64,000 nt of DNA from NCBI GenBank assembly GCA_043812935.1, contig JBDRLO010000024.1, forward strand, positions 9,295-73,294, in the 5' to 3' direction. Numbering within the stretch: position 1 is the first letter of the stretch; every line of letters starts with the position of its first letter. Below, piece after piece: positions 1,165-55,100 of the stretch. The position numbers and the translations under genes are program-made. Origin of the DNA: Candidatus Omnitrophota bacterium. Its GTDB lineage: Bacteria > Omnitrophota > Gorgyraeia > Tantalellales > Tantalellaceae. The notes beneath the pieces were generated by a model that did no database searches, was not told the origin of the DNA, and worked only from the letters and a program-made list of their open reading frames with translations.

Positions 1165-1551
1165 ATGGCTGAACGGAGAAAAATGGACCGGAGAAAATTT
1201 GAAATACTTGTTATGGAAGCGCTTAAAACATTACCGGAAATCTTTAAAAACAGTTTAAAAAATGTTGATGTTATTATTGAAGATGAACCGTCTGCTGATC
1301 AGGAAGAAAAAATTAACGCGTTGCATCGCAGGTTAGTATTGGGATTATATCAGGGCGTGCCGTTGTCCAGACGAAGCCAGTATTATGGTATGGTAATGCC
1401 CGATAAAGTTTCCATTTTCCAAAAAAATATAGAAAAAGTCTGTAGATCGGATGAAGAAATAGTGAGGTTGGTGAAACATACGGTTCAGCATGAACTTGCA
1501 CACCATTTTGGGATTTCTGACCAAAGGATGAGAGATCTTGATGTTTATTAG
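1165..1551 (+). CDS. zincin-like metallopeptidase-family protein (DUF1025-like)
   Basis: HExxH motif (HELAHHFG) near C-terminus; N-terminal EILVMEALKTLPEIF...IIEDEP pattern typical of this small family; ATG at 1165 more likely than TTG at 1159. Confidence 0.55.
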   Translation: MAERRKMDRRKFEILVMEALKTLPEIFKNSLKNVDVIIEDEPSADQEEKINALHRRLVLGLYQGVPLSRRSQYYGMVMPDKVSIFQKNIEKVCRSDEEIVRLVKHTVQHELAHHFGISDQRMRDLDVY

Positions 1552-1596
1552 CCGGCCTGTGTTGTTAACATATTGTTGTTTTGAATTTTTAAGAGT

Positions 1597-2607
1597 TTAG
1601 TTTTTATTGACGCGGATATTATCAATGCAAATATGACCGTTGTAAGCAGTGTTATATGATTCTATTCGCACCGCCAGCTTGCGGATGTCAGATCTGATTG
1701 TATCGTTAATTTGTATTGGATCCCAGTCTTTGCTTTTGTCAGTCAAGTCGGCGGTAATAGTAACCCATTTTCCGGGACACAATCTTACTGTATGGTTCAT
1801 CTCGATGAAATCCCAATTTTCGCAGGCAGTTAAGATGAGTTTTCCACGGATTTCCGTTTCAGGCGCAGTAGGAGGCAAGTATACGTCAGCGGATATAGAA
1901 TCATAATTTGTAAGGTTAAGATATTGTTGGATTTCAATCAAAGCAGCTGTCCATGTTCTTCCTGGGAATTCCACAAAAAGTTCAAGAGAACCTTTGTCCT
2001 GACTCGCAATATAATCAATTTTATCAATAAGCCGTGCTACATGATCTTGTTTATCGAGTTCCCATAAGGGTATCTCCCAGCCGTTTAAGTCATTTTCAAA
2101 ATTATAGAGAATCTTGTTTCTTGGAATTGAAAGATTTGTTTCGTCAGATGGGGCTGGAATTTTAGTATTAGTCGTCTCTAAAGGAGTGCCTGTGGAGGAC
2201 AAAGATGTAAGGCCTTTTTTGTCTGATGGTTCAGTGTCTATTAAAGAGGTAGTAATATCTTTTTCCCACGCTTCAGGTGAAATAGGACCTTTATGCACAG
2301 GTTCGATATGAATGTTTACGCTAAAAACAACGCGTTTTTGTTGAAAAAACCATACGAGAGGAATAATCAAGCCGGCAATAATTAGCAACGAGATGATCCA
2401 TTTGGCAAACCGCGAAGCGCGAACAGCATCTTTTTTTGCCGGCGCGGTTTTTATGCTGTTTCTTTTCGCTATTTTTTTAAAATGATTTTGTTGAAGCAGT
2501 TTACGGATGTCGTCCGGCTGTTCTTTTTTTTCGTTCAGCGTGTTATTCCGAAAATATGTCTTTGATAATTCAAAATCAATTTTGTCTGGTGTTTTTGTTC
2601 CCTGCAT
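1597..2607 (-). CDS. hypothetical membrane-anchored protein (basic N-terminus, single TM, extracytoplasmic domain)
   Basis: long ORF, N-terminal TM segment IISLLIIAGLIIPLVWFF; no recognisable catalytic motif. Confidence 0.4.
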   Translation of the reverse strand: MQGTKTPDKIDFELSKTYFRNNTLNEKKEQPDDIRKLLQQNHFKKIAKRNSIKTAPAKKDAVRASRFAKWIISLLIIAGLIIPLVWFFQQKRVVFSVNIHIEPVHKGPISPEAWEKDITTSLIDTEPSDKKGLTSLSSTGTPLETTNTKIPAPSDETNLSIPRNKILYNFENDLNGWEIPLWELDKQDHVARLIDKIDYIASQDKGSLELFVEFPGRTWTAALIEIQQYLNLTNYDSISADVYLPPTAPETEIRGKLILTACENWDFIEMNHTVRLCPGKWVTITADLTDKSKDWDPIQINDTIRSDIRKLAVRIESYNTAYNGHICIDNIRVNKN

Positions 2608-2774
2608 AATTGTTTGGCTAATAAGTTTAGTTTGAAAAAATATAAAAAATACAGACTAAATTATATACTATAAAATCAGAAAATGCACGTCAAAAAAATA
2701 AAAAAGAAAAAATTTTTCTATAAATAATCTGGACAAAAAATAAAAGTTTGTTTATTTACAACCTGATATCAATA

Positions 2775-2803
2775 TGATATACTTTCACCGGAATACAGTA
2801 TTG
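2775..2803 (+). promoter_or_regulatory. sigma70-like promoter with extended -10 (TTTACA-17-TGaTATACT)
   Basis: -35 TTTACA, 17-nt spacer, TG-extended -10 TATACT about 45 nt upstream of ParA-like start. Confidence 0.35.
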
Positions 2804-2846
2804 AAAGTTTTTGATACGGATCTTTAAACCATTGTCAGGAGGAAAT

Positions 2847-3890
2847 ATGAAAGTTATTTCAATCGCAAACCAAAAAGGCGGTTGTGGAAAAACGACGCTG
2901 GCAGTGAATATTGCGGCGACACTTTCCAGTTTAGGCAATGAAACTCTTCTCATGGATCTTGATCCGCAAGCTCACGCGACTTTTGCATTGGGCCTTTCTG
3001 AAAAATCTTCAGAGCATAAAACATCGTATGATATATTTCGGTCACGTTTTAACAAATCCGGTATTGATTTTGAGGAATTAGTGATACATGGCCGGGAGAA
3101 ACTTTCTTTTGTTCCCGCGAATATGATGCTTAGCGCGGCTGAAATTAATCTTGGGAGTATTGATGGTGCCGCGGCAATATTGTCACAGACTCTATCGCAT
3201 CCATATTTTGAAAAATATGAATATATTGTAATTGATTCTCCTCCGAGTTTTGGTTTTTTGACTTTAAATTCCATGTACGCGGCTGATGTTATACTTGTTC
3301 CGATAGATTTGAGTTATTTTGCTTTTAACGGGATTAATAGTGTTTATCGTGTTGCTAGTTTGTTGAATAGAGAAACAGGACGCAGTCCTTCGATTTTTTT
3401 TGCAATGAATTTATTTGATAACCGGTCAAATTTTGCAAGAAAAATAGAAAATGAAGCGCGGGCAAAGCTAGGAGAATATCTTTTATCAACTAAGATCCGT
3501 TCCAGTGTCCGCTTAAGAGAAGCGGCGAGTGAGGGTAAAACTATATTTGAATATGCGGAGGAATCGCCGTCCGCGTCGGATTTTATTAATCTCACTTGTG
3601 AGATTTTGGTTGCTGAGAGCAAAAAAGCGAATACAGTTATGAAAGAATTTATGTTTCATGCTCCGGAAGCGGGTGCGGTTTATGTGCTTGGCGATTTCAA
3701 TAATTGGCAGAAAACAGAAGCCAGCAGGCTTACGAAACTTGAGAATGGACATTGGTCCGGCCATGTTACTTTGCGGCGCGGGAAATATCGGTATAAATTT
3801 TTGGTAGATGACGAATGGATTCATGATCCGGAAAACCGTAAAGTTAGGACAAATGAGTTTGGTACGCATGATTCGATTGTTAAAGTATAG
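2847..3890 (+). CDS. ParA/MinD-family P-loop ATPase fused to C-terminal AMPK-beta-type glycogen-binding domain (CBM48)
   Basis: deviant Walker A KGGCGKTT right after RBS-preceded ATG at 2847; C-terminal ~85 aa GDFNNWQ...GKYRYKFLVDDEWIHDP closely matches AMPK beta GBD signature (GSFNNWS...HQYKFFVDGQWTHDP). Confidence 0.8.
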   Translation: MKVISIANQKGGCGKTTLAVNIAATLSSLGNETLLMDLDPQAHATFALGLSEKSSEHKTSYDIFRSRFNKSGIDFEELVIHGREKLSFVPANMMLSAAEINLGSIDGAAAILSQTLSHPYFEKYEYIVIDSPPSFGFLTLNSMYAADVILVPIDLSYFAFNGINSVYRVASLLNRETGRSPSIFFAMNLFDNRSNFARKIENEARAKLGEYLLSTKIRSSVRLREAASEGKTIFEYAEESPSASDFINLTCEILVAESKKANTVMKEFMFHAPEAGAVYVLGDFNNWQKTEASRLTKLENGHWSGHVTLRRGKYRYKFLVDDEWIHDPENRKVRTNEFGTHDSIVKV

Positions 3891-3937
3891 GGTGTAAGTC
3901 AGTAGTGCTACCTATAATATAATAACTTAAATGAAAA

Positions 3938-3970
3938 AGGTTCCCCTAATTTAGTGGAACCTTTTTCTTT
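3938..3970 (+). terminator. rho-independent terminator
   Basis: stem aggttcc/ggaacct with 11-nt loop followed by a T-tract. Confidence 0.5.
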
Positions 3971-4127
3971 GCGATAGCCGTATCGAGTGTTTTTATTTCA
4001 ATATTAATTTAAAAATAACTTGAATTATGTCATAAAATATTGTTTAATACAGATCATTAGTGTTGCATAATATACAATAATATTAATATGAATATACAAA
4101 TTCACAAATTACAGAAAGGGAAATGTT

Positions 4128-5075
4128 ATGTCACAACCAATTGTTTATTCAAAAAGCAAAGAAAATATCGTTGTCCGGTATGAAGGCAATCCAATTTTAA
4201 CAAAAGACGATGTTCCTGCAGCGGCAAAAGGAGTTTATAATTCCGGATGTATCAAAACTACGGAAGGCAAGTATGTTATGCTTTGCAGAGTTGAAACTCC
4301 GTCTATGAAACAATTAATTTGGCCGGCGGATTCTGTTGATGGAATAAAATTTAAACTGAGGCCGGAACCTATAAAAATGCCGGATACAGAAGAATTTAAA
4401 GAATATACGACAGGGATGTATTACGATCCGCGTGTTGCTCAAATTGAAGGTGTCTATTATGTGGTATTTGCTTGTCACAGTGGGCATTCTTGCCGATTGG
4501 GGCTTCTAGAATCGCCTGACATGATACAATTCAAGTGGAGAGGGTTTATTTCTGAAACGGATAATCGCAATGGAGTTCTTTTTCCTGAAAAGATAAATGG
4601 GTTATATTGCCGTTTGGATAGGCCTAATACCGGCGACGGGAAAGGATATATGTGGCTTTCGTATTCGCCGGATCTTATTCATTGGGGACAGTCAAAAGCA
4701 GTGGCTTTTTCTCAGGATGAATGGGGCTGGAAGAAGAATGGTCCGGGTGCGGTCCCGATAAGGACAGAAAAAGGCTGGTTGGTTATTTATCATGCAGTTA
4801 ATGTCCAGTGCGCGGCGCAATATGTTTACCATTTGGGAGTTATGCTGTTGGATCTTAACGATCCTTCAAAGATTGTTGCTCGTGCAAAAGCGCCGATACT
4901 TTCGCCGACTACCAACTATGAACTTAATGGCTTGACGTATGCGGTTGTATTTACTTGCGGTGCGGTAGCAGAACCTGACGGTGAAGTGAAAATATATTAC
5001 GGCGGCGCGGATACTGTACAATGTTTGGCAACCGCAAGGATTGAAGATCTTGTTGACGCGTGTTTTAATCGATGA
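4128..5075 (+). CDS. glycoside hydrolase family 130 protein (beta-mannoside phosphorylase-like)
   Basis: 315 aa, five-bladed beta-propeller-like GH130 pattern (GNPIL...NSGCIK...YYGGAD); good RBS. Confidence 0.65.
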   Translation: MSQPIVYSKSKENIVVRYEGNPILTKDDVPAAAKGVYNSGCIKTTEGKYVMLCRVETPSMKQLIWPADSVDGIKFKLRPEPIKMPDTEEFKEYTTGMYYDPRVAQIEGVYYVVFACHSGHSCRLGLLESPDMIQFKWRGFISETDNRNGVLFPEKINGLYCRLDRPNTGDGKGYMWLSYSPDLIHWGQSKAVAFSQDEWGWKKNGPGAVPIRTEKGWLVIYHAVNVQCAAQYVYHLGVMLLDLNDPSKIVARAKAPILSPTTNYELNGLTYAVVFTCGAVAEPDGEVKIYYGGADTVQCLATARIEDLVDACFNR

Positions 5076-5267
5076 ACAGGGTAACCAGCTTGTTAATGTA
5101 GATATAATGGAAAGTCGCACATCCATACATAGGTGAACAACTTGCATAAACAAGAAATCAGCGCTACACTTGGAAAAACCAAAACAGGAGGTGCGTTATG
5201 AAAAGTGTAGTATTGATGTCCATCAAGGAAATATATGTGCCCCCGTGCCTGTCCGTTAAATCAATGC

Positions 5268-5321
5268 TACGTGTAACCTGTAACCTGTAACGTGTTTCGT
5301 GCAACGTGAAGCGTGCAACGC
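5268..5321. repeat. ACGTG-rich degenerate 8-mer repeat block (copy 1 of dispersed family)
   Basis: tacgtgtaacctgtaacctgtaacgtgtttcgtgcaacgtgaagcgtgcaacgc; shares acgtgtaacctgtaacgtg and gtgcaacg with the block at 11281-11437. Confidence 0.7.
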
Positions 5322-5335
5322 ATAAGGATTTACCA

Positions 5336-5752
5336 ATGAAGTATGGCGTTTCTTTACGCAAGGAAACGGAGCTCAAGAAAAAAATGCGCCGTTTTGGCGT
5401 AAAAGAAAAAGATATTACGGAGAACTTTATACGATCCAGCGGCCGCGGCGGACAAAACGTTAATAAAGTCGCAACATGTGTTTATTTAAAACACAAACCG
5501 TCGGGTGTTGAAGTCAAATGTAAACAGGCCAGGACACAAGCGCTTAACCGTTTTATCGCGCGAAGGATACTTGTTGAAAAAATTGAAACTAAAACATTAG
5601 GAAAGCTTTCGGCAGAAAAACAACGAATAGAAAAAATCCGGCGTCAAAAACGAAAACGGTCCAAAAGGGCAAAAGAAAAAATACTTGCCGATAAAAAAAA
5701 ACAGGCACAAAAAAAGAATCTTAGAAAGTCAATAAGCGCGCAGGAAGACTAG
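5336..5752 (+). CDS. arfB: ArfB-like peptidyl-tRNA hydrolase (RF-1 GGQ domain with basic C-terminal tail)
   Basis: GGQ motif (SSGRGGQNVNKVATCV) followed by a Lys/Arg-rich tail; about 139 aa from the internal ATG. Confidence 0.65.
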   Translation: MKYGVSLRKETELKKKMRRFGVKEKDITENFIRSSGRGGQNVNKVATCVYLKHKPSGVEVKCKQARTQALNRFIARRILVEKIETKTLGKLSAEKQRIEKIRRQKRKRSKRAKEKILADKKKQAQKKNLRKSISAQED

Positions 5753-7445: not shown

Positions 7446-7588
7446 CCGGGATATTTAAATAGTTTTTGCATTCTGCCGGTATCTAATGATATACTATTAA
7501 TAATACTACTATATTTACAATTATACCTAATATATGATTTAGCTTGGTATGCTGGGTAAAGAGGCTAGAGAAAAAAGGAGGCGTCAAG

Positions 7589-7822
7589 ATGGAAAGAGAT
7601 GTTGCGGTTTTTGAAAAAAATAAGTATCAGGATGTGAAAATACGCATATCTGAATATCAGGGGAATGATGTTATAGATGTTAGAATATGGACACAGCCGC
7701 CGCAGGGAGATGAGAAAGTGCCTACGGGAAAAGGTATTAACATAAACGTAAAACTTTACTCAAAACTGAAAGAGGCTGTTGACGAATTGGGCAAAGTGCT
7801 GAAAGAAAATAATCTGGTTTAA
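7589..7822 (+). CDS. PC4/YdbC-like small ssDNA-binding protein
   Basis: about 77 aa; pattern FEKNKYQDVKIRISEYQGNDVIDVRIW...GKGININ typical of bacterial PC4-like (YdbC) proteins; RBS aaggagg before the ATG at 7589. Confidence 0.5.
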   Translation: MERDVAVFEKNKYQDVKIRISEYQGNDVIDVRIWTQPPQGDEKVPTGKGININVKLYSKLKEAVDELGKVLKENNLV

Positions 7823-7885
7823 GGTTTTGCCGTACGGAATTTTTTATTCGCGATGACTGTGAAATAGTTTTTTCAAACGGAGAGT

Positions 7886-8347
7886 ATGCTTATGTCTATT
7901 AATGAGGGGAATGCGCACAAAGAAAAACGTCGTTTTATCAGGCATTTGCTTGTTAATCCGCTTGAATTTCAAATTTTTGAAAATGATAATTTTCAAAAAT
8001 CCGAGACAATTGACGTGAGTGAAGGCGGTCTCATGTTTACTTCCAGAAAAGGTGTGGCTGCGAATGCGATAATAAACCTGCAGGTTCCTTTGTATGAGAA
8101 AATTTTCAAAATTAGAGCAAAAGTAATTCATTCCAAAAAAGATCAAAGTACCGGGCTGTACAGGATAGGTGTTGCGTTTATCAATTATTCCGATGCTTTT
8201 AAAATCAAAATAATTGAACAGATTTATTTGATTGAAGAGTACCGAGTATTACGTTCACTTCAAACGGGAAAAGATCTAAGCCTGCCGGAAGCTTCACGAG
8301 AGTGGATAAAAAGGTATTCTGCCAGATTTGAGAAATTGTATTGGTAA
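7886..8347 (+). CDS. stand-alone PilZ domain protein (c-di-GMP binding)
   Basis: RxxxR (RRFIRH) and DxSxxG (DVSEGGLMF) PilZ motifs. Confidence 0.65.
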   Translation: MLMSINEGNAHKEKRRFIRHLLVNPLEFQIFENDNFQKSETIDVSEGGLMFTSRKGVAANAIINLQVPLYEKIFKIRAKVIHSKKDQSTGLYRIGVAFINYSDAFKIKIIEQIYLIEEYRVLRSLQTGKDLSLPEASREWIKRYSARFEKLYW

Positions 8348-21581: not shown

Positions 21582-23165
21582 TTGAAAATGCGGGAGCATC
21601 TTATGAAAAAAATTGTTCTGATCGCAAGTATGATATTAATGCTGAATACGGGTGTTGAGGATGCCGTAAGTAAACAGGCTGATTTAGCGGGTATTTGGTA
21701 TCCTGGTTCTCCGGAAAAACTGAAAGCGGAAGTCGCGACGTATTTAAATAATGCTCAGGTTGGACATATTAACGGAAACATTATCGGCGCAATAGCGCCT
21801 CATGCGGGTATCAGGTTTTCCGGACCGATTGCGGCATATACTTACAGGGCTTTAGCCGGGCAAAATTTAACAAAACTGGTTATAGTTGGGTTTTCGCATA
21901 AGTACTATTTTCCTAATACCGTATCAGTTTTTTCTGACGATAGTTTTATCACACCGCTTGGAAGCATAAAAATAGATATGCCGCTTTCCGAAAAAATTAT
22001 GGCAAGTAACCCTAGTATTAAAAACTTTCCGGAAGCGTTTGCCTCAGAGAATTCAATCGAACTTCAGCTCCCGTTTATTCAAACCGTTTTTGGCGATAAT
22101 ATCCAGGTTGTACTTATATCTCTTTGCGATCAAAGCAAAGAAAATGCAGAAATGTTGGCAGACACGCTTTATAAAGTTTTAAAAGATGAAAAAAATTTTG
22201 CTGTGGTTGCGTCGACTGATATGTGCCATTATTTGTCGTATTTTGAAGCGGAAAGAAGGGATAGGAATACGATCAAAGAGATACAGGCGTTTGAACCTGA
22301 ACTTTTTTATTTAGCAAGCGCTAAAGAAGACCATAAACTTATGTGCGGCTACGGCGCAGTATACGCGGTTATGGAAACAAGCAAAAAACTTGGAGCGGAT
22401 AAGTCAATTGTTTTAAAATATGGCAATTCCGGAGATTTTGCGCCGCAGACAAAAAACAGTGTGGTTGGTTATTTGAGCGCTTTATTTATTAAAACTGCCG
22501 AAGAAGATAATACAAATGTTGTTGGAGACGAAAAAAATACAGAGATCAATTTTCCAGAAACCTCGGAAACAGAAGATGCTGTTCAGGGTAAAAAGGAGGA
22601 AATCGGCATGTTAAATGAAGCCCAAAGAAAAGAACTTTTGAAAATTGCCAGAGATTCAATAAAGCTTTATCTTGAAAAGGGTAAGCGGTTAAACGTGCAG
22701 ACGGATGATGCCCTGCTTAAAGAGAATATGGGCGCTTTTGTAACTTTGCATGAAACCGGTAGATTGCGGGGATGTATCGGAAGGATAATTGCGGCAGGCC
22801 CGCTTTATCTTGCTGTGCGGGATATGGCAATAGCCGCGGCAGTAGAGGATCCAAGATTTAGGCCGTTGAGTTTGGATGAACTGGGTAAGGTGGATATTGA
22901 AATATCTGTTTTATCACCTATGAAAAAAATAAATGATTCTGACGAAATTGTTATGGGCAAACATGGGGTAATGATAAAGGACGGGTTAAGAAGCGGAGTT
23001 TATTTGCCGCAGGTTGCCGATGAAACGGGTTGGGACAGGGAAACTTTTATGAATAGTTTGTGTGTCAATAAGGCCGGCCTGTCTCAAGATGCTTGGAAAA
23101 CAGGTTCTTGCGAAATTTATGTTTTTACGGCGGAAGTTTTTGGCGAACATAATAAACCAGAATAA
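21582..23165 (+). CDS. AmmeMemoRadiSam system fusion protein (Memo-like AmrB domain + AMMECR1 AmrA domain) with N-terminal signal-peptide-like segment
   Basis: Memo-type AGIWYPGS...IAPHAGIRFSGP motifs; C-terminal AMMECR1 GAFVTLHETGRLRGCIGRI; N-terminus MKKIVLIASMILMLNTG resembles a Sec signal peptide. Confidence 0.75.
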   Translation: MKMREHLMKKIVLIASMILMLNTGVEDAVSKQADLAGIWYPGSPEKLKAEVATYLNNAQVGHINGNIIGAIAPHAGIRFSGPIAAYTYRALAGQNLTKLVIVGFSHKYYFPNTVSVFSDDSFITPLGSIKIDMPLSEKIMASNPSIKNFPEAFASENSIELQLPFIQTVFGDNIQVVLISLCDQSKENAEMLADTLYKVLKDEKNFAVVASTDMCHYLSYFEAERRDRNTIKEIQAFEPELFYLASAKEDHKLMCGYGAVYAVMETSKKLGADKSIVLKYGNSGDFAPQTKNSVVGYLSALFIKTAEEDNTNVVGDEKNTEINFPETSETEDAVQGKKEEIGMLNEAQRKELLKIARDSIKLYLEKGKRLNVQTDDALLKENMGAFVTLHETGRLRGCIGRIIAAGPLYLAVRDMAIAAAVEDPRFRPLSLDELGKVDIEISVLSPMKKINDSDEIVMGKHGVMIKDGLRSGVYLPQVADETGWDRETFMNSLCVNKAGLSQDAWKTGSCEIYVFTAEVFGEHNKPE

Positions 23166-48310: not shown

Positions 48311-49219
48311 TCATAGACATATATGTGATATGAGTTGATATCCCTTTAAAATGCTCTCAGAGACCATCTGTGACATCATTTGGATGTTCCCCATATCACC
48401 CTTAGAAAGTGCTAAATAGTAATTATATTGGTCCTCAATACGGATTAAAGCCGGCGGAAAACCGTTTAAAAGAAGCTGTGTGTTCATTAAAAGCCGTCCA
48501 ATACGGCCATTTCCGTCAAAAAATGGATGAATTGTTTCAAATTCATAGTGATCCGCGGCAATCTTTTTTATAGGATTTGTGCCGTAATTATTAATGTTAT
48601 TCAAAAGTTTTTTCATTTTTATTGGAACCATTTGTGCTGATGGTAATTTTACTTCAGTATTAGTCAAATTTACGTAACCTGTACGGTATTTTCCCGGAAG
48701 TTTGTGGTTAAAATTATATAATACTATTTTATGCAATTCTAAAATGTAATTTTCAGTAATTTTAAATCCAGGTTTAATCATATCCAGCATAAAAACTAAT
48801 GCGTTTCTGAGATTAACAGCTTCAAGTATTTCCAAAAAGTGCCGTCCCTTTACTTCCCCATTTTCAAGAGCTTGTTCGGTTTCTTTAAGCGTCATTCTGC
48901 TGCCCTCAATTGCATTTGAATTATATGTGGTTTCGAGAAAAAATTTTTCCCGAAGCTCCCTATTGGTGTGCAGTTTTTGTATTGGATTGGGCATATTTTT
49001 AGCGATTTGTATAACGTGCGGCGTTAAGTCAATGGTTTCTTTGAAAAGCGTGTCCAAGTGCCTGGATTGTGCCGGGTGCGGTTTTATTCCCTGAGTTAAC
49101 CATCTATGGATTGTGTTGTATGATACTTCAAGCACTCTGGCAATTTCTGTTTGTGTAAGCCCCGCTGAATTGATTAGCTTTTCAAGTTTTTCTTTGTCTG
49201 TTAATGTGACATTTTTCAT
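48311..49219 (-). CDS. Fic-family protein with N-terminal HTH
   Basis: Fic motif HPFFDGNGRIGRLLMN; N-terminal HTH LTQTEIARVLEVSYNTIHRWL. Confidence 0.85.
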   Translation of the reverse strand: MKNVTLTDKEKLEKLINSAGLTQTEIARVLEVSYNTIHRWLTQGIKPHPAQSRHLDTLFKETIDLTPHVIQIAKNMPNPIQKLHTNRELREKFFLETTYNSNAIEGSRMTLKETEQALENGEVKGRHFLEILEAVNLRNALVFMLDMIKPGFKITENYILELHKIVLYNFNHKLPGKYRTGYVNLTNTEVKLPSAQMVPIKMKKLLNNINNYGTNPIKKIAADHYEFETIHPFFDGNGRIGRLLMNTQLLLNGFPPALIRIEDQYNYYLALSKGDMGNIQMMSQMVSESILKGYQLISHICL

Positions 49220-49400
49220 AGATAACTTTCAAATGCTATGTGACATATGTTATAAAATGTTATACATATTATATATAAAATGTTGTAGTGTGTCAAATAG
49301 TTTTTTGTTTTTATTGTTTTATTTGGCTTGGTGTGAGTATTTGCTACTTACCTGTTGCAAATGTAATTCTCGTAACGTTCTGTCGTATAAGAAACTTATT

Positions 49401-50066
49401 TTACGACAAAGACTTAAGAATTGTTTTCTCTAGGTATTCAAATTTGTTTTCAATATAGTAATGCCGCATTTGTGTGTCCAACAACGAGCCCAGAGCAACT
49501 TTAAAATCATTAGCACTGAACGAAGTAGCTTTTTTAAGGAGTTTTTTTAAATTATCAGTTTTTGTGTTAAGAGTGATTCCTTGTCGTAATAAAAATTCAA
49601 GGTCAAAAAAATCACGTATTGCTTTTCTTTCTAATGCGGCTTCAATTTTATTTTTCATGGCCTGTTCAAGTGTGTGTACGCGCATAATTACCTGTTTTGT
49701 GCTGTATTGTGAAAAAGCGATTCTTTCCTGAAAATCACATTTCATCAAAGCTTTGCGTATTTCAATTTTAAGCCGTCTGGGGTAATTTTTTGAACGGATT
49801 TCAAATAAAAGCGTATAAAATTTTATTTGGGCGTCAGTTATATCATAGTCTGTATTTTTTAAATATTGATGTAATTTTTTAAAATAATCTTTAACAGGCA
49901 TTTTTCGAATAAACCAAAAATCCAAATCGACAGAATACCTGTTTAAATCGTAACATAGGCGCAACATGGTTCCCCCACCGAAGACCAAAGGCTCTAAGAA
50001 CTTAGCGCTTTTCAATTGATTTAAAACTTCAATTTCAAATATTTCGTGTTTTTGCAGAACATTCAT
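49401..50066 (-). CDS. nucleotidyltransferase AbiEii-family toxin (DUF1814)
   Basis: N-terminal GGTMLRLCYDLNRYSVDLDF pattern typical of AbiEii/AbiGii; overlaps the upstream antitoxin-like gene. Confidence 0.7.
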   Translation of the reverse strand: MNVLQKHEIFEIEVLNQLKSAKFLEPLVFGGGTMLRLCYDLNRYSVDLDFWFIRKMPVKDYFKKLHQYLKNTDYDITDAQIKFYTLLFEIRSKNYPRRLKIEIRKALMKCDFQERIAFSQYSTKQVIMRVHTLEQAMKNKIEAALERKAIRDFFDLEFLLRQGITLNTKTDNLKKLLKKATSFSANDFKVALGSLLDTQMRHYYIENKFEYLEKTILKSLS

Positions 50067-50634
50067 TTTTGAAAAGCTCCTGGGTTTTTTTTGGAAAATT
50101 TTTTAATAAAAATTTTAATTTAGTTTGGTTTAATTTATTGAAATCGATAGAAGATATGTCGAAAAAATATCTATTCAACGACATTAAATATAATGCGTCT
50201 AAAAAAGCCTTTTCAGGGGTTGCTATGAAAAAAACCTTATTTTTAATAAAATCAGCATACAGAGCGTGTTGTATTTTAGTATAAGTTAAAACAGTGTTTT
50301 TTATTTCCAGGCGTTTTGTCCTTTTTATTGCGATTGATTCTATAAAGCCCTGCTGGATGAGGCTGGTTATTTCATAAAAAGAAAGTGCAGTCATCAGGGA
50401 TATATATGATGGCACTTGTACAACATTTGCCAGGAGAAATTTCTCCTCAATTTCTAATGTGACCCAACGGTTGTTTAAAATATATAAATTACGTTTTATT
50501 CTAACCAACAAGCCTTGTTTAACGTAGCGATTTGCTTCTACTCGGGCAGATTTTAATTTTGTGCCGAGAGTTTTTGCTATCTCCTCATAGCCGAAATACA
50601 GTTTAGTAATGTGATTTAATTTTGCGTAATTCAT
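50035..50634 (-). CDS. AbiEi-family antitoxin-like transcriptional regulator
   Basis: 199 aa, N-terminal wHTH-like segment, 32-nt overlap with AbiEii gene (typical type IV TA arrangement). Confidence 0.5.
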   Translation of the reverse strand: MNYAKLNHITKLYFGYEEIAKTLGTKLKSARVEANRYVKQGLLVRIKRNLYILNNRWVTLEIEEKFLLANVVQVPSYISLMTALSFYEITSLIQQGFIESIAIKRTKRLEIKNTVLTYTKIQHALYADFIKNKVFFIATPEKAFLDALYLMSLNRYFFDISSIDFNKLNQTKLKFLLKNFPKKTQELFKNECSAKTRNI

Positions 50635-52111: not shown

Positions 52112-55100
52112 TTAGAGTGATGTAAATGCCTGGGCTTCTGCTTTATATTCAACTCGCAATTTGTCATATTCAAAGAAATCAGCATCAGGGAGCAGGAATA
52201 CTATTCGTGATTCCTCATCATAGTTTGCTATGATCGGAGGACGCTTAGTAGGCTGTAGCCCTATTGCCAGTTCTATTGTTAGGGAGAGCATTTTGACCAG
52301 CATAACCTTTTGAATTAATTGCTGGTTCCCGTCCTTACAGAATTTTATTTTTGAAGTGTTAATACTTGCAATAAACGCCCTTTTTTCTTTCGGAGTACTT
52401 TTTAAACCGCTAAACGTAGCCGCATTAATTGTTGTGTCAGAGCCCATGGCAATAATGTCTGACAGTTCTGTCGAGGTTTTTTTTGCCTTTTCCATGATTT
52501 CCGCTGCCAGATTTTCGCTGGTGCTATGTACGAAAAATACGTTATCAAGCCCCATATCCTTTAGCCGCTTTTCAAGGCGGCACATTTCCTTAGGTTTGTT
52601 TTCAGGAGGCAGAAGCTCTTTAAAAAGCGGAAAAAGCAGGTTGTGCTGAAGCTGGTCGTCTTTATTTGGTATCCAGTCTGTTTCAAACGCGACAATGAGG
52701 TTTTTATTTTGTTGTTGCTTAAGCCGAGCAAGTGCTATAAGCGAATTTATAATGCTGGCCGGTTCAAGTTCGTGCAAGTGTTTTGTAATATATTCCATAT
52801 CTTGGTCGATCTTTGCCGGAACTTTTGCAAGGTTTGCCAACTCAGCGAAATGCTCCTTTTTTTCAAGGTCTTTTATGAAGCCCATTGTTTGTAAAGTTTT
52901 TCCGATTTCCTGGCGGATTTCCTCGGAAAGGTCTTTTTTAGTAAGCGGCTGAGGGCGCAAGTCTTGAGTAAAACCGTCAATGCTTTTAAGGAAATTCCGG
53001 ATCGCGTTTGTTTTTTTTACAAGGTTTACGCGGATATTATTTGCCTCAGCTTTTGCTATGTGCAATAGCCGGATAGTTTTATCGTGTGTTTTTTTCGGAT
53101 GAGGTGCCGCGGTTTCAGGCGTTTCTGTAATTTGTAATTGTGTTGACGCGTTTTGCGCATTGTCGCCTAATTTATCTTTTTGAATGGCGGCAATAGCGCC
53201 TTTTGGGATTGGAGGATCAGTTTTTACTGGCAATTTTGTTTCTGGCGTTTCAACCATTCTTGTTTCCGGATCTTCTTCCAAGCTTGTCGTTAAAATATGT
53301 TTGAAAAAACATTTCATTGCAAAGTATAAAGCAGCTAATACCGCAATGATTAATGTTAATTTTAACGTAAAAATGCCCGGGTTATGTTCGGTTTTGAGAC
53401 ATATTTCAAAAAGATTTTGTGCCGACGCCGGGTTTTGAAAGAAATTTATTATTAATGGAACAGTTGGGATTGCCAATAGAAAAGGCAAAAGTGCCCGGAT
53501 ATTCTTTTTATCCGACGATTTATTGCCGGAGATTTTGTTTATTATTGATTTTACGAAAAATTGTATAATGTAAAACGCGATTAAAAGGAAAAATACGTAA
53601 TTAAGATAACTTATAACCGGGGAAATACGTTTTACTGTTGTAAGAAAACCGGAATAGTTTAATAATCCGGCATGTGATTGCCCTTCCCAGAAAGATACTA
53701 TTGAGAAAACAATAGCTGAAATCGTAACTAATAAAGGTAACATTGCTTTCATTGCGTTTAAGAAAGAGTTTTTCTTTCCGTTTGTTTTTAATGTTTCAGT
53801 ATCAGTTATTTTAATAACTTTTGAGTCCGCTACTGTAGAAAAGTTCTCCATTAACGAAACAGTTGTCCCGTTTTGGATTTGTTCCTTGCTCATTTTTTGA
53901 GGGTCCACCAGAAAAATCACGGTGGATTTAATAATAGGCGACATTTTGAAAACGGGCATATTCTTAAGCGCATGCGCGTTCATAATAACCATTTTTATTT
54001 TTCCGGATTGAATTGATTCAAGAAGCTTTGATTCCTGTTTTTTGTAAAGAGAACCGTCAACAAACAAAATATCTTCGTTAAATATATTTTTTTTAATTTG
54101 TGTAGCAAAGGTCATAAAACTTTTTGCAGTTGTAACATCCGGGGTTAAAACAAATTGAAGTGTTTGATTAACGCTGGTTTGGTGTTGTTTTTCTTTTTGC
54201 ATTTCGGGGACAGCGTTGAGTATGGCACTAAACTTGTCTTCAGTGTTTTTTGGAATTGAAGCTGCTCTTGTAAATATCCATATTTTACTATCTGTTTTAT
54301 AAGTGTGTTGTTTGTGTTTAGATTTATTTGACAAAACAAAGTTTTTGGCCAATAAAATAAAAGTCAGGGCTACAAGAAAAGTTGTTGCCAAGAGCCCCCA
54401 AATGGAAGGGCCTTTATTCCCTATTTTTTGGTTGGTTTCTAATATAAAATTAGCCGTTCCATTGCCCCGTAAATAGAAAACAGAAAACATTATGGGGATT
54501 ATATATTTAAGTGATGTCCAGAACGTGAAATCCTGAGTTTTTTTAGCTTCCGTGTTTGTTCTTGAGATGTTTGTATGTAGCTCCTTGAGTTTGGTCAAGG
54601 CGGAAGCTCGCCTGATAAGTATTGCACGTACGAGAATTACAAATACAGCTATGGAAAATACAATTTCGAATCCCACGATTAATTTGTTGAAAAAGGCTAC
54701 TTGGCAAGCTTTTTTTAATTCCTCTGTTAGCATTATTTGGGCAACTGGCTGTGATAATGCCCGGCTGCTTAACATAAAGATTGTTGTAGGTATAAGAAAA
54801 ACAAAAGGAACTATGCTTTTGAGGATATTTATAAGAGCGTTTTTCTTTTTCTGTGCACTGTTGAGAGTTTTTTCATCGGTCATATCCGCTATTGTAAAAT
54901 TGTTTATGTTGGAAAAACTTTTATGAGAATGAAGTGTTGCGGCTTTTTTAAGCTGGCTCCGGGTCATTGTAGGCCCGTCAACAATAAAAACGGCCAAAGA
55001 TTTAATATTAGACGATATTTTACGTTGAGGCATATCGCTGACATGGTCAGCGGCCATAATAACCCATTTTATTTCACCGGATAGAATGGATTGTAGTTTT

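What the first reader, a model, noticed from the sequence alone, without database searches (positions are those of the whole stretch)
2847..3890. ParA/MinD-type ATPase fused to a glycogen-binding CBM48 (AMPK-beta GBD) domain
The N-terminal about 260 aa are a deviant-Walker-A ParA/MinD ATPase (KGGCGKTT). The C-terminal about 85 aa match the AMPK beta-subunit glycogen-binding domain signature almost motif-for-motif (GDFNNWQ, GKYRYKFLVDDEWIHDPEN, FGTHDSIVKV). ParA-like ATPases position cytoplasmic cargo such as carboxysomes, PHB granules and chemoreceptor arrays through adaptor proteins. A direct fusion to a glycogen-binding module suggests a dedicated system for positioning or segregating glycogen or polyglucan granules. 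The next gene encodes a GH130 glycoside phosphorylase, which adds carbohydrate context.
Basis: partly seen in the sequence, partly recalled or inferred. Interest (0 to 1): 0.75.

Follow-up and report, generated by a model that had tools for sequence, protein, structure and literature searches.

The report
Orphan ParA ATPase fused to glycogen-binding module
A bacterial "cargo-positioning" ATPase carries its own glycogen-binding domain; it belongs to a large, unstudied family found in several phyla, and it may be the first clue to how bacteria organise their glycogen stores, though its function is still inferred.

Summary
Window 2847..3890 (+) is one uninterrupted 347-aa gene. Residues 1-256 are a Soj/ParA-type deviant-Walker-A ATPase. 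Residues 263-347 are an AMPK-beta-type CBM48 that keeps the glycogen-contacting residues.

It is not a one-off. More than 100 Omnitrophota orthologs share 59-92% identity. 131 of the 150 best 50%-identity cluster representatives have the same architecture, with linkers of 8-302 aa. Full-length copies occur in Planctomycetota, Myxococcota, Gemmatimonadota and Gammaproteobacteria MAGs.

It is an orphan ParA. No fusion locus has parB, whereas 38 of 46 ordinary ParA loci do. Its Walker A motif is a family-specific KGGCGKT.

It remains untested, and no glg gene lies near the fusion in the loci examined.

New here:
- In Omnitrophota the gene is paired with a divergently transcribed single-pass membrane protein. 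That protein has a highly conserved cytoplasmic N-terminal peptide (D.ID.ELS[KR]TYF) and an exported mannan-CBM-like domain, so it is a candidate partner.
- GH130 follows the fusion in 10 of 12 close loci, but GH130 is a beta-mannoside family, not an alpha-glucan one.

No paper on this fusion was found. Verdict: real, uncharacterised, a new variant of ParA/MinD systems.

The parts
2847..3890 (+). ParA-CBM48 fusion gene (347 aa plus stop)
   Evidence: Single ORF. Pfam AAA_31/CbiA plus AMPK1_CBM/CBM_48. More than 100 orthologs of the same length. AF2 model has pLDDT 89.2 and pTM 0.85.
2847..3614 (+). Soj/ParA-type ATPase domain (residues 1-256)
   Evidence: phmmer against PDB: 8ray 7e-37, Thermus Soj 1wcv 3e-35. 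Foldseek: Soj TMt 0.92, with only about 257 of 347 residues aligned. K10, K15, D37, D39 and D130 are invariant in 127 diverse family members.
2874..2897 (+). Deviant Walker A KGGCGKTT (residues 10-17) with the family-specific Cys13
   Evidence: Cys13 is present in 108/108 orthologs and 117/127 diverse fusions. It is present in 0/46 ordinary ParA loci (38 of them ParB-linked), which all have KGGVGK[TS].
3423..3425 (+). R193, equivalent to B. subtilis Soj R189 (non-specific DNA binding)
   Evidence: Alignment to Thermus Soj 'YDGRT'. Numbering checked on Bsu Soj. R in 107/108 orthologs and 106/127 diverse members.
3510..3512 (+). R222, equivalent to Bsu Soj R218 (non-specific DNA binding)
   Evidence: 'SSVRLREA' aligns with Soj 'RNVRLSEA'. 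R or K in 105/108 orthologs and 96/127 diverse members.
3615..3632 (+). Short interdomain linker (residues 257-262)
   Evidence: DSSP of the AF2 model places helix 241-256 before strand 263-271. The linker is 8-302 aa across the family.
3633..3887 (+). CBM48 / AMPK-beta-type glycogen-binding domain (residues 263-347)
   Evidence: Pfam AMPK1_CBM E 1.6e-13. PDB 1z0m/4yef E about 1.5e-10. W287 (3705..3707), K317 (3795..3797) and W324 (3816..3818) correspond to W100, K126 and W133 and are conserved.
2755..2783 (+). Promoter-like site for the fusion gene (TTTACA-17-TG-TATACT), followed by SD AGGAGG at 2838..2843
   Evidence: Best consensus match in 1500..5400 (10 of 12, extended -10); sequence read. 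This is a consensus match only.
1597..2607 (-). Divergently transcribed candidate partner: a single-pass membrane 'glycan-binding surface protein' (336 aa)
   Evidence: 100% identical to P0268 (NCBI, Omnitrophota MAG). Adjacent to the fusion in WIN, L003/4, L085, L087, L089 and L090. AF2 predicts an N-terminal helix at 9-19, a TM helix at 62-89 and a beta-sandwich at 164-334.
2548..2583 (-). Conserved cytoplasmic N-terminal peptide of the partner (residues 9-20, KIDFELSKTYFR)
   Evidence: A regex version of the motif D.ID.ELS[KR]TYF matches 30 of the 33 full-length homologs, and the other 3 carry close variants. It is the only conserved block in the first 160 residues. Similar peptides occur on neighbours of distant fusions.
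1606..2118 (-). Exported beta-sandwich CBM-like domain of the partner (residues 164-334)
   Evidence: Pfam CBM27 and SGBP_B_XBD, weak. Foldseek best hits are mannanase CBM 1wky (5.9e-10), CBM27, CBM28 and CBM11. Short paralogs are lipoproteins or carry signal peptides, so the domain is extracytoplasmic.
4128..5075 (+). GH130 glycoside phosphorylase/hydrolase, a conserved downstream neighbour
   Evidence: Pfam Glyco_hydro_130 E 6.2e-50. NCBIfam beta-mannobiose phosphorylase models hit below their cutoffs. Directly downstream at 80-90% identity in 10 of 12 distinct close-ortholog loci.

Best explanation
The gene encodes an orphan (ParB-less) Soj/ParA-type ATPase that is permanently tethered, through its C-terminal CBM48, to cytoplasmic alpha-glucan (glycogen).

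Proposed cycle:
1. ATP binding closes the deviant-Walker-A sandwich dimer (inferred from invariant K10, K15, D37, D39 and D130).
2. The dimer presents a non-specific DNA-binding surface (R193, R222) and two CBM48 modules. A weak monovalent sugar contact thus becomes a bivalent one, much as MinD's two membrane helices act together.
3. Glycogen particles coated with the protein are thereby coupled to the nucleoid. They are spaced or inherited with it, as ParA-type systems do for carboxysomes and PhaM does for PHB granules.
4. ATP hydrolysis releases the contact.

In Omnitrophota, hydrolysis or recruitment is probably controlled by the conserved N-terminal cytoplasmic peptide of the neighbouring membrane protein. 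That peptide has a conserved K/R at position 16.

Shown here: the gene structure, both domains, conservation of the functional residues, orphan status, family size, and the conserved neighbours. Inferred: glycogen binding, DNA binding, dimer avidity, the role of the partner peptide, and the cellular function.
For: - Both domains lie well above family thresholds and align to solved Soj and AMPK-GBD structures.
- The sugar-stacking Trp residues are present in 127/127 and 126/127 diverse members. The K126 equivalent is K/R in 123/127, and the N150 equivalent is N/D in 115/127. Their role in glycogen binding is experimentally established for AMPK (PMC2642990).
- The nearest CBM relatives include a pullulanase with 8 CBM48 repeats (P0178), which fits alpha-glucan specificity.
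- The catalytic residues are invariant, and the Soj DNA-binding arginines are largely conserved.
- 0 of 18 fusion loci have parB, against 38 of 46 ordinary ParA loci. The fusion ATPases cluster apart from Soj.
- The linker varies from 8 to 302 aa, as expected for a tethered binding module.
- There is no signal peptide, so the CBM is cytoplasmic (sequence).
- Omnitrophota MAGs encode GlgABC (PMC8542988).
- The family is strongly conserved in two phyla: more than 100 clusters each in Omnitrophota and Sedimentisphaerales, at 59-92% and 62-100% identity to the respective query.
Against: - There is no experimental datum.
- No glg, malQ or glgP gene was seen near the fusion. The 9 loci with full Pfam gene lists have none. 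The neighbours checked at the other loci are non-glycogen genes.
- The conserved neighbours in Omnitrophota have a beta-mannan flavour (GH130; a CBM27-like ectodomain). In several distant loci the neighbours are envelope-polysaccharide genes: Wza, Wzz, Wzy, GT4, Alginate_exp and a PEP-CTERM protein.
- Ca. Aadella gelida has the ortholog (P0030), but its published Table 2 entry shows trehalose synthesis and no glycogen synthesis.
- A ParA that binds its cargo directly has no obvious cargo-borne ATPase activator, which diffusion-ratchet positioning needs.
- From background knowledge, many Omnitrophota are described as very small cells, in which active positioning seems less needed.
Confidence: 0.4

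Rival explanations
1. The protein is a spatial organiser or regulator of a cell-envelope glycan module, working like BcsQ, TadZ or PpfA. The real cargo or client is the neighbouring membrane-anchored, exported beta-sandwich protein, or in other lineages a polysaccharide export machine. The ATPase binds the client's cytoplasmic N-terminal peptide. The CBM48 serves as an anchor or as an input reporting carbon-store status, not as the handle on the cargo.
For: - A conserved divergent or upstream membrane partner carries an invariant N-terminal peptide.
- The partner's domain is extracytoplasmic and mannan-CBM-like.
- GH130 is adjacent in 10 of 12 close loci.
- Distant loci lie next to envelope-polysaccharide genes: Alginate_exp (L006); Poly_export plus Wzz/GNVR (L007); Wzy_C plus GT4 (L013); PMT_2 GT-C (L010, L169); and a PEP-CTERM beta-sandwich protein (L028, L170, L171).
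- Full-length Pfam CBP_BcsQ hit (E 1.4e-7) and BcsQ fold matches.
Against: - It does not explain why sugar-binding residues of an alpha-glucan module are nearly invariant in a cytoplasmic protein.
- The envelope context is not universal (L088, L095, L170).
- Sequence and fold are much closer to Soj than to BcsQ: TIGR03371 scores 76 bits against a cutoff of 158, and identity to BcsQ structures is 16-17%.
- The peptide similarity between lineages is weak statistically (hhalign probability 3-6%).
Confidence: 0.22
2. The protein is an AMPK-like glycogen sensor. The CBM48 docks on the ATPase, and glycogen or branched oligosaccharide binding allosterically changes ATP turnover or dimerisation. This would couple a ParA-controlled process to the state of the carbon store.
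For: - In AMPK the same domain is a regulatory glycogen sensor and not only a tether (PMC2642990).
- The AF2 model of the short-linker Omnitrophota protein gives pTM 0.85 for the two-domain chain, which suggests a defined interdomain packing.
Against: - Most family members have long, poorly conserved linkers of up to 302 aa. That argues against a fixed allosteric interface as the ancestral mechanism.
- The controlled process is not identified.
Confidence: 0.12
3. The C-terminal beta-sandwich is a protein-protein interaction (E-set) domain that no longer binds sugar. The protein would then be an ordinary orphan ParA with an unknown protein cargo.
For: - CBM48/E-set folds are reused for protein contacts; for example, the AMPK CBM packs on the kinase lobe (background knowledge).
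- No glycogen genes lie in the neighbourhood.
Against: The surface aromatic platform and the polar sugar-contact residues are conserved across members with 50% identity or less (W287 in 127/127, W324 in 126/127). This is hard to explain without a carbohydrate ligand.
Confidence: 0.1
4. It is simply the chromosome-partitioning ParA (Soj) of the organism with an accessory domain, as database names such as 'chromosome partitioning protein' imply.
For: - The best solved-structure matches are chromosomal Soj/ParA.
- The DNA-binding arginines are kept.
Against: - No ParB motif occurs anywhere in 18 fusion loci, including the whole 64-kb window, whereas 38 of 46 ParA-only loci have parB directly downstream.
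- Canonical Soj sequences form their own cluster (31 of 31) that excludes the fusions.
- The Walker A motif is KGGCGKT, not KGGVGKT.
- NCBIfam ParA_partition scores 104.7 bits against a cutoff of 180.
Confidence: 0.04

Closest known systems
Chromosomal Soj/ParA (T. thermophilus 1wcv/2bek, H. pylori 6iub, 8ray)
   Same: Same fold (TMt 0.85-0.92), 29-34% identity, deviant Walker A with signature lysine, Walker A' and B aspartates, and the two DNA-binding arginines.
   Different: It has no parB partner and carries Cys in Walker A. It has an extra C-terminal CBM48 that no solved ParA/MinD structure has; only about 257 of 347 residues align. It clusters apart from Soj.
McdA-McdB carboxysome positioning, and other orphan ParA cargo systems (PpfA-TlpT, PomZ-PomXY, ParC-ParP)
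   Same: All are orphan ParA-type ATPases proposed to distribute a non-DNA cytoplasmic cargo on the nucleoid. Partners in those systems act through N-terminal basic peptides (background knowledge). Here a neighbouring protein has a conserved N-terminal peptide with a conserved K/R.
   Different: Here the cargo-binding module is fused to the ATPase itself. The putative partner is a membrane protein with an exported domain, not a cargo-bound adaptor. Similarity to McdA is weaker (E about 1e-13; 23-24% identity).
AMPK beta-subunit glycogen-binding domain (CBM48; 1z0m, 1z0n, 4yef)
   Same: Sequence match at E about 1.5e-10 over the whole domain. W100, K126, W133, L146, T148 and N150 are conserved or conservatively replaced.
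   Different: It is attached to a P-loop ATPase in a bacterium rather than to a kinase scaffold. Whether it acts as a tether or as a sensor is unknown.
PhaM of Ralstonia eutropha (PHB granule-nucleoid tether)
   Same: Functional analogy: one protein that binds both a storage granule and DNA, so that granules are inherited with the nucleoid (background knowledge).
   Different: PhaM is not an ATPase and shares no homology. The present protein would add an ATP switch.
Plant PTST2/PTST3-MFP1 starch-granule initiation system
   Same: A CBM48-containing non-enzymatic protein works with a membrane-anchored partner to decide where alpha-glucan granules form (background knowledge).
   Different: It is eukaryotic and plastidial, uses coiled coils in place of an ATPase, and shares no homology outside the CBM48.
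BcsQ (ParA/MinD-family organiser of cellulose secretion)
   Same: Same superfamily. Full-length Pfam CBP_BcsQ hit (E 1.4e-7) and fold matches 6yar/6ybb. Both are associated with polysaccharide biology.
   Different: TIGR03371 scores 76 bits against a cutoff of 158. Identity is 16-17%. No bcs genes are nearby. BcsQ has no CBM.

Membership tests
ParA/MinD (deviant Walker A, SIMIBI) ATPases | Deviant Walker A KGGxGK[ST] with the N-terminal signature lysine | tested here: met
   KGGCGKTT at residues 10-17. K10 and K15 are invariant in 108 orthologs and 127 diverse members.
ParA/MinD (deviant Walker A, SIMIBI) ATPases | Walker A' (switch I) aspartates and Walker B aspartate | tested here: met
   D37 and D39 (DLDPQ) and D130 (VIDSPP) are invariant in 127/127.
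ParA/MinD (deviant Walker A, SIMIBI) ATPases | Soj/MinD-like alpha/beta fold | tested here: met
   AF2 pLDDT 89. Foldseek gives Soj TMt 0.92, McdA 0.84 and MinD about 0.78.
ParA/MinD (deviant Walker A, SIMIBI) ATPases | ATP-dependent sandwich dimerisation and ATP hydrolysis | not testable with these tools
   Needs biochemistry.
Chromosomal ParABS partition ATPase (Soj) | Encoded next to parB (spo0J) | tested here: not met
   The ParB GERRxRA motif occurs in 0 of 18 fusion loci, against 38 of 46 ParA-only loci. No ParB domain was found in the window ORFs scanned.
Chromosomal ParABS partition ATPase (Soj) | Reaches NCBIfam ParA_partition or groups with Soj sequences | tested here: not met
   NF041546 scores 104.7 bits against a cutoff of 180. 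In UPGMA clustering, 31 of 31 Soj sequences form a cluster without fusions.
Chromosomal ParABS partition ATPase (Soj) | Non-specific DNA-binding arginines (Bsu Soj R189, R218) | tested here: met
   R193 in 106/127 and R222 as R/K in 96/127. The binding itself was not tested.
CBM48 / AMPK-beta glycogen-binding domain | Profile match above the curated threshold | tested here: met
   AMPK1_CBM scores 51.1 bits (cutoff 26.8) and CBM_48 scores 30.8 bits (cutoff 22.4).
CBM48 / AMPK-beta glycogen-binding domain | Carbohydrate-contact residues W100, K126, W133, L146, T148 and N150 (rat beta1 numbering) | tested here: met
   The equivalents are W287, K317, W324, F338, T340 and D342. Family-wide: W 127/127, W 126/127, K/R 123/127, N/D 115/127. 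Residue roles are from PMC2642990.
CBM48 / AMPK-beta glycogen-binding domain | Binds glycogen or alpha-1,4/1,6-glucan | not testable with these tools
   Needs pull-down or ITC.
MinD | C-terminal amphipathic membrane-targeting helix; minC/minE neighbours | tested here: not met
   The C-terminus is the last beta-strand of the CBM. TIGR01968 scores 31 bits against a cutoff of 213. No min genes were found in the loci.
BcsQ (cellulose secretion organiser) | Reaches TIGR03371; sits in a bcs operon | tested here: not met
   76.2 bits against a cutoff of 157.85. No bcs genes are nearby.
Adaptor-dependent cargo-positioning ParA (McdAB-like) | Adjacent partner whose N-terminal peptide contacts or activates the ATPase | tested here: inconclusive
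   A candidate partner with a conserved N-terminal peptide is adjacent in 6 of 9 distinct close loci that have upstream sequence. Similar peptides occur on the neighbour of 8 distant loci. The interaction itself was not testable.
BY-kinase (Wzc/CapB-type) | C-terminal tyrosine cluster; full-length match to the eps_fam model | tested here: not met
   TIGR01007 matches only residues 1-40, at 28 bits against a cutoff of 108. The C-terminus is the CBM.

The most novel reading that the evidence does not exclude
The ParA-CBM48 ATPase and the neighbouring single-pass membrane protein form a previously unrecognised two-component, ATP-switched system. It would physically link intracellular glycogen particles to defined membrane sites, or to the nucleoid. 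The partner's conserved N-terminal peptide would act as the ATPase activator, and its exported mannan-CBM-like domain would report or bind external glycan. This would be a bacterial counterpart of the plant PTST2-MFP1 granule-siting system and the first dedicated glycogen-organising machinery in prokaryotes.
Probability: 0.15. Interest if true: 0.85.

Novelty: new variant of a known kind. Interest (0 to 1): 0.68.

Why it matters
To my knowledge, how bacteria place and inherit glycogen granules is not understood. ParA/MinD ATPases are known to position chromosomes, plasmids, carboxysomes, chemoreceptor arrays and the divisome. In each of those cases they work through a separate adaptor protein.

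This ParA has the cargo- or matrix-binding module built in, and that module is aimed at a polysaccharide. That would extend the ParA/MinD paradigm to carbon-storage granules, and it offers a simple, testable model: ATP-driven dimerisation turns a weak monovalent sugar contact into a bivalent one.

The family is large and strongly conserved in Omnitrophota and in Sedimentisphaerales (Planctomycetota). Both groups are poorly understood, so the protein is likely to matter for their cell biology. Databases currently label it only 'AAA family ATPase' or 'chromosome partitioning protein', and the second label is probably wrong.

The candidate partner peptide found here gives an immediate handle for biochemistry.

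Tried and rejected
- Exact look-up of the window protein in the contig index found nothing on record. Orthologs were used instead.
- The listing of cluster members on 10 distant representatives returned no taxon names. Taxonomy was taken from GTDB record titles and NCBI names.
The metagenome scan added only about 7 close and 4 distant fusion loci.
- The afdb50 fold library was unavailable. The PDB library was used.
- BLASTP of the window partner against the L007 neighbour was not significant. hhalign of the partner profile against the L095 and L007 neighbours found only the N-terminal peptide, at low probability. Homology of the ectodomains is therefore not claimed.
- No Pfam family was found for the soluble 'ISHYFLS'-type neighbours or the L006/L007/L009 neighbours.
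- Mapping of the H. pylori Soj DNA-contact lysines was abandoned because the alignment is gappy there. Only the two Bsu Soj arginines were used.
- Six literature searches for ParA or ParA-like proteins together with glycogen, CBM48, glycogen-binding domain or carbohydrate-binding module found nothing relevant.
- The chromosomal Soj reading was rejected. The MinD, BcsQ and BY-kinase membership readings were rejected.
- The window was searched for glycogen genes or parB and none was found.
Full report
OBSERVATION

The ORF list shows one uninterrupted reading frame, 2811..3890 (+). The in-frame ATG at 2847 gives a 347-aa protein starting MKVISIANQKGGCGKTT. That start is preceded by AGGAGG (2838..2843). 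It also follows the best sigma-70-like site in the 1500..5400 region scanned (2755..2783, TTTACA-17-TG-TATACT). Orthologs start at the same Met and are 347 aa long.

Pfam gives AAA_31 at residues 1-176 (E 7.6e-43), CbiA at 4-233, AMPK1_CBM at 274-347 (E 1.6e-13; 51 bits against a cutoff of 26.8) and CBM_48 at 267-327. The C-terminal 94 residues hit rat AMPK beta1 GBD structures (1z0m, 1z0n, 4yef) at E about 1.5e-10. The N-terminal 268 residues hit ParA/Soj structures (8ray 7e-37; Thermus Soj 1wcv 3e-35), with McdA much weaker at about 1e-13. The downstream gene 4128..5075 is a GH130 (E 6.2e-50).

A FAMILY, NOT AN ACCIDENT

A search of 5.8 billion proteins found more than 100 full-length 347-348-aa orthologs at 59-92% identity. 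Every one that carries a name is from Candidatus Omnitrophota, including Ca. Omnitrophus magneticus, Tantalella and Aadella. There are also fusions of about 360 aa at 37-43% identity.

An exhaustive HMMER search of 1.84 billion cluster representatives was followed by domain mapping with HMMs built from the two halves. 131 of the 150 best 50%-identity representatives have one ATPase domain plus one CBM, with linkers from 8 to 302 aa.

- Omnitrophota (L006, L007)
- a Myxococcales MAG (L008)
- Planctomycetia (L009), Sedimentisphaerales (L021) and Pirellulales (L028)
- a Thiogranum MAG (L011)
- a Gemmatimonadales MAG (L013)
- unclassified MAGs (L005, L010, L012)

A search with the Pirellulales protein revealed a second big and well-conserved subfamily. 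Its named members are mainly from Sedimentisphaerales, with more than 120 clusters at 62-100% identity and lengths of 404-514 aa.

Database names are only 'AAA family ATPase' or 'chromosome partitioning protein'. No NCBIfam model reaches its cutoff. Six literature searches found no paper on the fusion.

FUNCTIONAL RESIDUES

In 108 orthologs and in 127 diverse representatives, the ATPase catalytic set is invariant: K10, K15, D37, D39 and D130.

The Walker A motif reads KGGCGKT. The Cys is present in 108/108 orthologs and 117/127 diverse fusions. It is present in 0 of 46 ordinary ParA genes, which all read KGGVGK[TS]. It is therefore a family hallmark of unknown meaning.

Soj's two non-specific DNA-binding arginines are R189 and R218 in B. 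subtilis numbering; I checked this numbering on the sequence. They correspond to R193 (106/127) and R222 (R/K in 96/127).

On the CBM, HMMER's alignment to 1z0m maps the AMPK sugar contacts W100, K126, W133, L146, T148 and N150 onto W287, K317, W324, F338, T340 and D342. Mutation of W100, K126, W133, L146 or T148 markedly reduces glycogen binding (PMC2642990). N150 is placed among the contact residues from my own recollection; the search of that paper found no mention of it. Family-wide the two Trp are present in 127/127 and 126/127 members, the Lys is K/R in 123/127, and the Asn position is N/D in 115/127.

The closest non-fusion relatives of this CBM are secreted multi-CBM48 proteins. One of them is a pullulanase with eight copies (P0178), which fits alpha-glucan specificity. 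The protein has no signal peptide, so any ligand must be cytoplasmic.

STRUCTURE

AlphaFold2 with a 64-sequence alignment gives pLDDT 89.2 and pTM 0.85. The model has a Soj-like alpha/beta domain ending in helix 241-256, a six-residue linker, and a beta-sandwich at 263-346. Foldseek against the PDB finds Soj/ParA first (TMt up to 0.92, 29-34% identity), then McdA, BcsQ and MinD. No solved chain covers more than about 260-270 of the 347 residues, so the two-domain architecture has no solved precedent.

NOT THE CHROMOSOMAL ParA

The GTDB scan also returned ordinary ParA genes, which served as a control. 38 of 46 have a ParB (GERRxRA motif) directly downstream. None of 18 fusion loci, including the whole 64-kb window, has the motif anywhere. 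In a distance clustering, all 31 canonical Soj sequences form one cluster that excludes the fusions. Pfam scans of about 45 window ORFs found housekeeping genes only, with no ParB and no glycogen enzyme.

NEIGHBOURHOOD IN OMNITROPHOTA

Gene tables and a tblastn comparison of 29 loci show a recurring arrangement:

HD-OB protein, Zincin_1, <membrane protein on the opposite strand>, ParA-CBM48, GH130, RF-1 domain protein, SNF transporter, PC4, PilZ, and then (in L001, L003, L085 and L087) mraZ and the division/cell-wall cluster.

GH130 lies directly downstream in 10 of 12 distinct close-ortholog loci, at 80-90% identity. This includes Ca. O. magneticus (L086), where the rest of the synteny differs. 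It is absent in L003/4 and L085. However, the NCBIfam hits are to beta-mannobiose phosphorylase models, below their cutoffs, and GH130 is a beta-mannoside family, not an alpha-glucan one.

A CANDIDATE PARTNER

The divergent upstream gene is window 1597..2607 (-), 336 aa. It is 100% identical to an NCBI Omnitrophota MAG protein named 'glycan-binding surface protein' (P0268). It recurs upstream of the fusion in L003/4, L085, L087, L089 and L090.

At least nine further homologs have exactly the same longest-contig length as a ParA-CBM48 ortholog. The pairs are 4980, 6299, 13029, 13911, 18462, 24510, 28656, 91033 and 254974 bp. This implies the two genes sit on the same contig, and on the 5-6 kb contigs they must lie within a few kb of each other.

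Its 98 homologs are essentially all from Omnitrophota (one carries a Patescibacteria label). They fall into two classes:
- 33 full-length proteins have an N-terminal motif D.ID.ELS[KR]TYF at about residue 14. A regex version of the motif matches 30 of the 33, and the other three carry close variants. After the motif come a basic stretch, one TM helix at residues 40-95, and a C-terminal beta-sandwich.
- About 65 shorter paralogs are lipoproteins (GCG lipobox) or signal-peptide proteins that carry only the beta-sandwich. This shows that the domain is extracytoplasmic.

The N-terminal peptide is the only conserved block in the first 160 residues. AF2 predicts a short helix at 9-19, a TM helix at 62-89, a disordered spacer, and a confident beta-sandwich at 164-334. 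The best fold matches of that sandwich are a mannanase CBM (1wky, 5.9e-10), CBM27, CBM28 and CBM11.

Neighbours of distant fusions carry similar N-terminal peptides:
- L006, DEIYDHLAKVYL; L007, DEIYEHLAKVYL; L009 (Planctomycetia), EVSEHLARVFF; L095, ELIQEKLSDVYF. In all four the gene is upstream on the same strand and has the same TM-plus-sandwich layout.
- L005, DISHYFLS; L010, SIGHYFLS; L013 (Gemmatimonadales), SIAHHFLP; L011 (Thiogranum), KIGARFLS. These sit on soluble downstream proteins with no Pfam match.

A regex for the motif found it at the start of the neighbouring ORF in 11 of 18 loci, with only two spurious hits elsewhere. Profile comparison of the partner alignment with the L095 and L007 neighbours picked exactly this peptide as the only local match, but at low probability.

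I therefore treat the Omnitrophota partner as well supported by adjacency. The cross-phylum peptide similarity is only suggestive. By analogy with the N-terminal peptides of ParB, MinE, McdB, PomX and TlpT (background knowledge), the peptide is a plausible ATPase-contact or activation element. It has a conserved K/R at position 16.

NEIGHBOURHOOD ELSEWHERE

No locus shows glycogen genes. The recurring flavour is envelope glycan:
- Alginate_exp (L006)
- MerR, Poly_export and Wzz/GNVR (L007)
- Wzy_C and GT4 (L013)
- PMT_2-type GT-C (L010, L169)
- GT28 (L009)
- a secreted P_proprotein-like beta-sandwich with a PEP-CTERM-type anchor, directly downstream in three Planctomycetota loci (L028, L170, L171)

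Other loci show nothing of the kind (L088, L095).

INTERPRETATION

What is shown:
- There is a real, single, strongly conserved gene.
- It combines an active-looking Soj-type ATPase with an AMPK-type CBM48 whose sugar platform is under selection.
- It has orphan status.
- It belongs to a large multi-phylum family.
- In Omnitrophota it has a conserved membrane-protein neighbour and a conserved GH130 neighbour.

What is inferred:
- The best-supported mechanism (confidence about 0.4) is an ATP-switched tether between cytoplasmic alpha-glucan particles and the nucleoid. ATP-driven dimerisation would create both the DNA-binding surface and a bivalent CBM48 pair. The GBD binds beta-cyclodextrin with a KD of about 0.3 mM, so avidity would matter. 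Hydrolysis would release the contact. The neighbouring membrane protein's N-terminal peptide is a likely regulator.
- The main rival (about 0.22) makes the membrane or envelope-glycan module the client and the CBM48 an anchor or input.
- An AMPK-like sensor role (about 0.12) is disfavoured as a general mechanism by the long variable linkers.
- A sugar-blind protein-interaction domain (about 0.10) is disfavoured by the conserved Trp platform.
- A chromosomal Soj role (about 0.04) is disfavoured by the ParB control.

Caveats:
- Everything functional rests on homology and context.
- The taxonomic survey is a sample.
- I could not test whether the same genomes carry a separate soj-spo0J pair, or whether the fusion co-occurs with glg genes. 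Williams et al. list GlgABC for most Omnitrophota MAGs, but not for Ca. Aadella gelida, which does carry the ortholog.

NOVELTY AND SCORE

The architecture can be seen in precomputed domain tables, but I found no description or experiment. It is a new variant of the ParA/MinD positioning systems, with a fused polysaccharide-binding module and a possible membrane partner. It is not a categorically new system. I score interest at 0.68. A specialist would find a ParA with a built-in glycogen handle surprising, and it makes the open question of bacterial glycogen-granule organisation directly testable. The function is still unproven, and the gene context does not point cleanly to glycogen.

Noticed in passing
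window 1597..2607 (-): A single-pass membrane 'glycan-binding surface protein' with an almost invariant cytoplasmic N-terminal peptide (D.ID.ELS[KR]TYF) and an exported mannan-CBM-like beta-sandwich. It is transcribed divergently from the ParA-CBM48 gene. About 65 shorter paralogs in Omnitrophota are lipoproteins or secreted proteins that carry only the beta-sandwich.
   Followed up: yes
window 4128..5075 (+): A cytoplasmic GH130 that is more conserved (80-90% identity) than the fusion itself. It is directly downstream in 10 of 12 close Omnitrophota loci, even where the rest of the synteny differs (L086). Its substrate is unknown; hits to beta-mannobiose phosphorylase models are below their cutoffs.
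   Followed up: partly
window 2874..2897 (+), and family-wide: The Walker A motif is KGGCGKT, with a Cys where ordinary ParA proteins have Val. The Cys occurs in 117/127 diverse fusions and in 0/46 canonical ParA. Its role is unknown.
   Followed up: partly
L005 1851..2507; L010 9102..9845; L011 6816..7502; L013 9111..10016: In non-Omnitrophota loci the gene directly downstream of the fusion encodes a soluble 218-301-aa protein with no Pfam match. Its N-terminus carries an I-[SAG]-H-[YH]-F-L-type peptide, reminiscent of the Omnitrophota partner peptide.
   Followed up: partly
L028 3232..3930; L170 8376..8987; L171 8581..9225: In Planctomycetota loci (L028 is from a Pirellulales MAG) the gene downstream of the fusion encodes a secreted P_proprotein-like beta-sandwich with a PEP-CTERM-type C-terminal anchor. 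An E2 2-oxoacid dehydrogenase lies upstream in L028, L169 and L171.
   Followed up: partly
L028 protein residues ~250-300 (family P0366-P0485): The long linker of the Planctomycetota subfamily begins with a conserved, probably helical segment and then becomes a variable low-complexity stretch. It may be an extra interaction element.
   Followed up: no
L006 5009..6355; L007 4429..6529; L013 10750..13394; L010 6111..7376; L169 8482..9708: Envelope-polysaccharide genes lie within a few kb of distant ParA-CBM48 genes: Alginate_exp, Poly_export/SLBB, Wzz/GNVR, Wzy_C, GT4 and PMT_2.
   Followed up: partly
window 52112..58771 (-): A giant ORF of 2219 aa, not annotated here. Very large ORFs also flank the fusion in L001, L086 and L171.
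   Followed up: no
window 48311..50634 (-): A Fic/DOC protein with an HTH, an AbiEii toxin and a 198-aa ORF lie in a low-GC stretch (0.32-0.33), just past the point (about 47-48 kb) where gene orientation flips from + to -. This may be a mobile or defence island.
   Followed up: no
window 7544..8347 (+): A PC4-like ssDNA-binding protein and a PilZ-domain protein form a conserved pair. In L001, L003, L085 and L087 the pair sits immediately upstream of mraZ and the dcw cluster. In this window other genes follow instead (a 172-aa ORF not scanned, then a 769-aa membrane protein with a spermidine-synthase domain).
   Followed up: partly
window 21582..23165 (+): A Memo-like plus AMMECR1 two-domain fusion protein (527 aa).
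   Followed up: no
P0121 (1812 aa), P0178 (1436 aa): Proteins with many tandem copies of a CBM48 closely related to the one in the fusion. P0121 has 18 matched stretches. P0178 is a pullulanase with 8 copies.
   Followed up: partly
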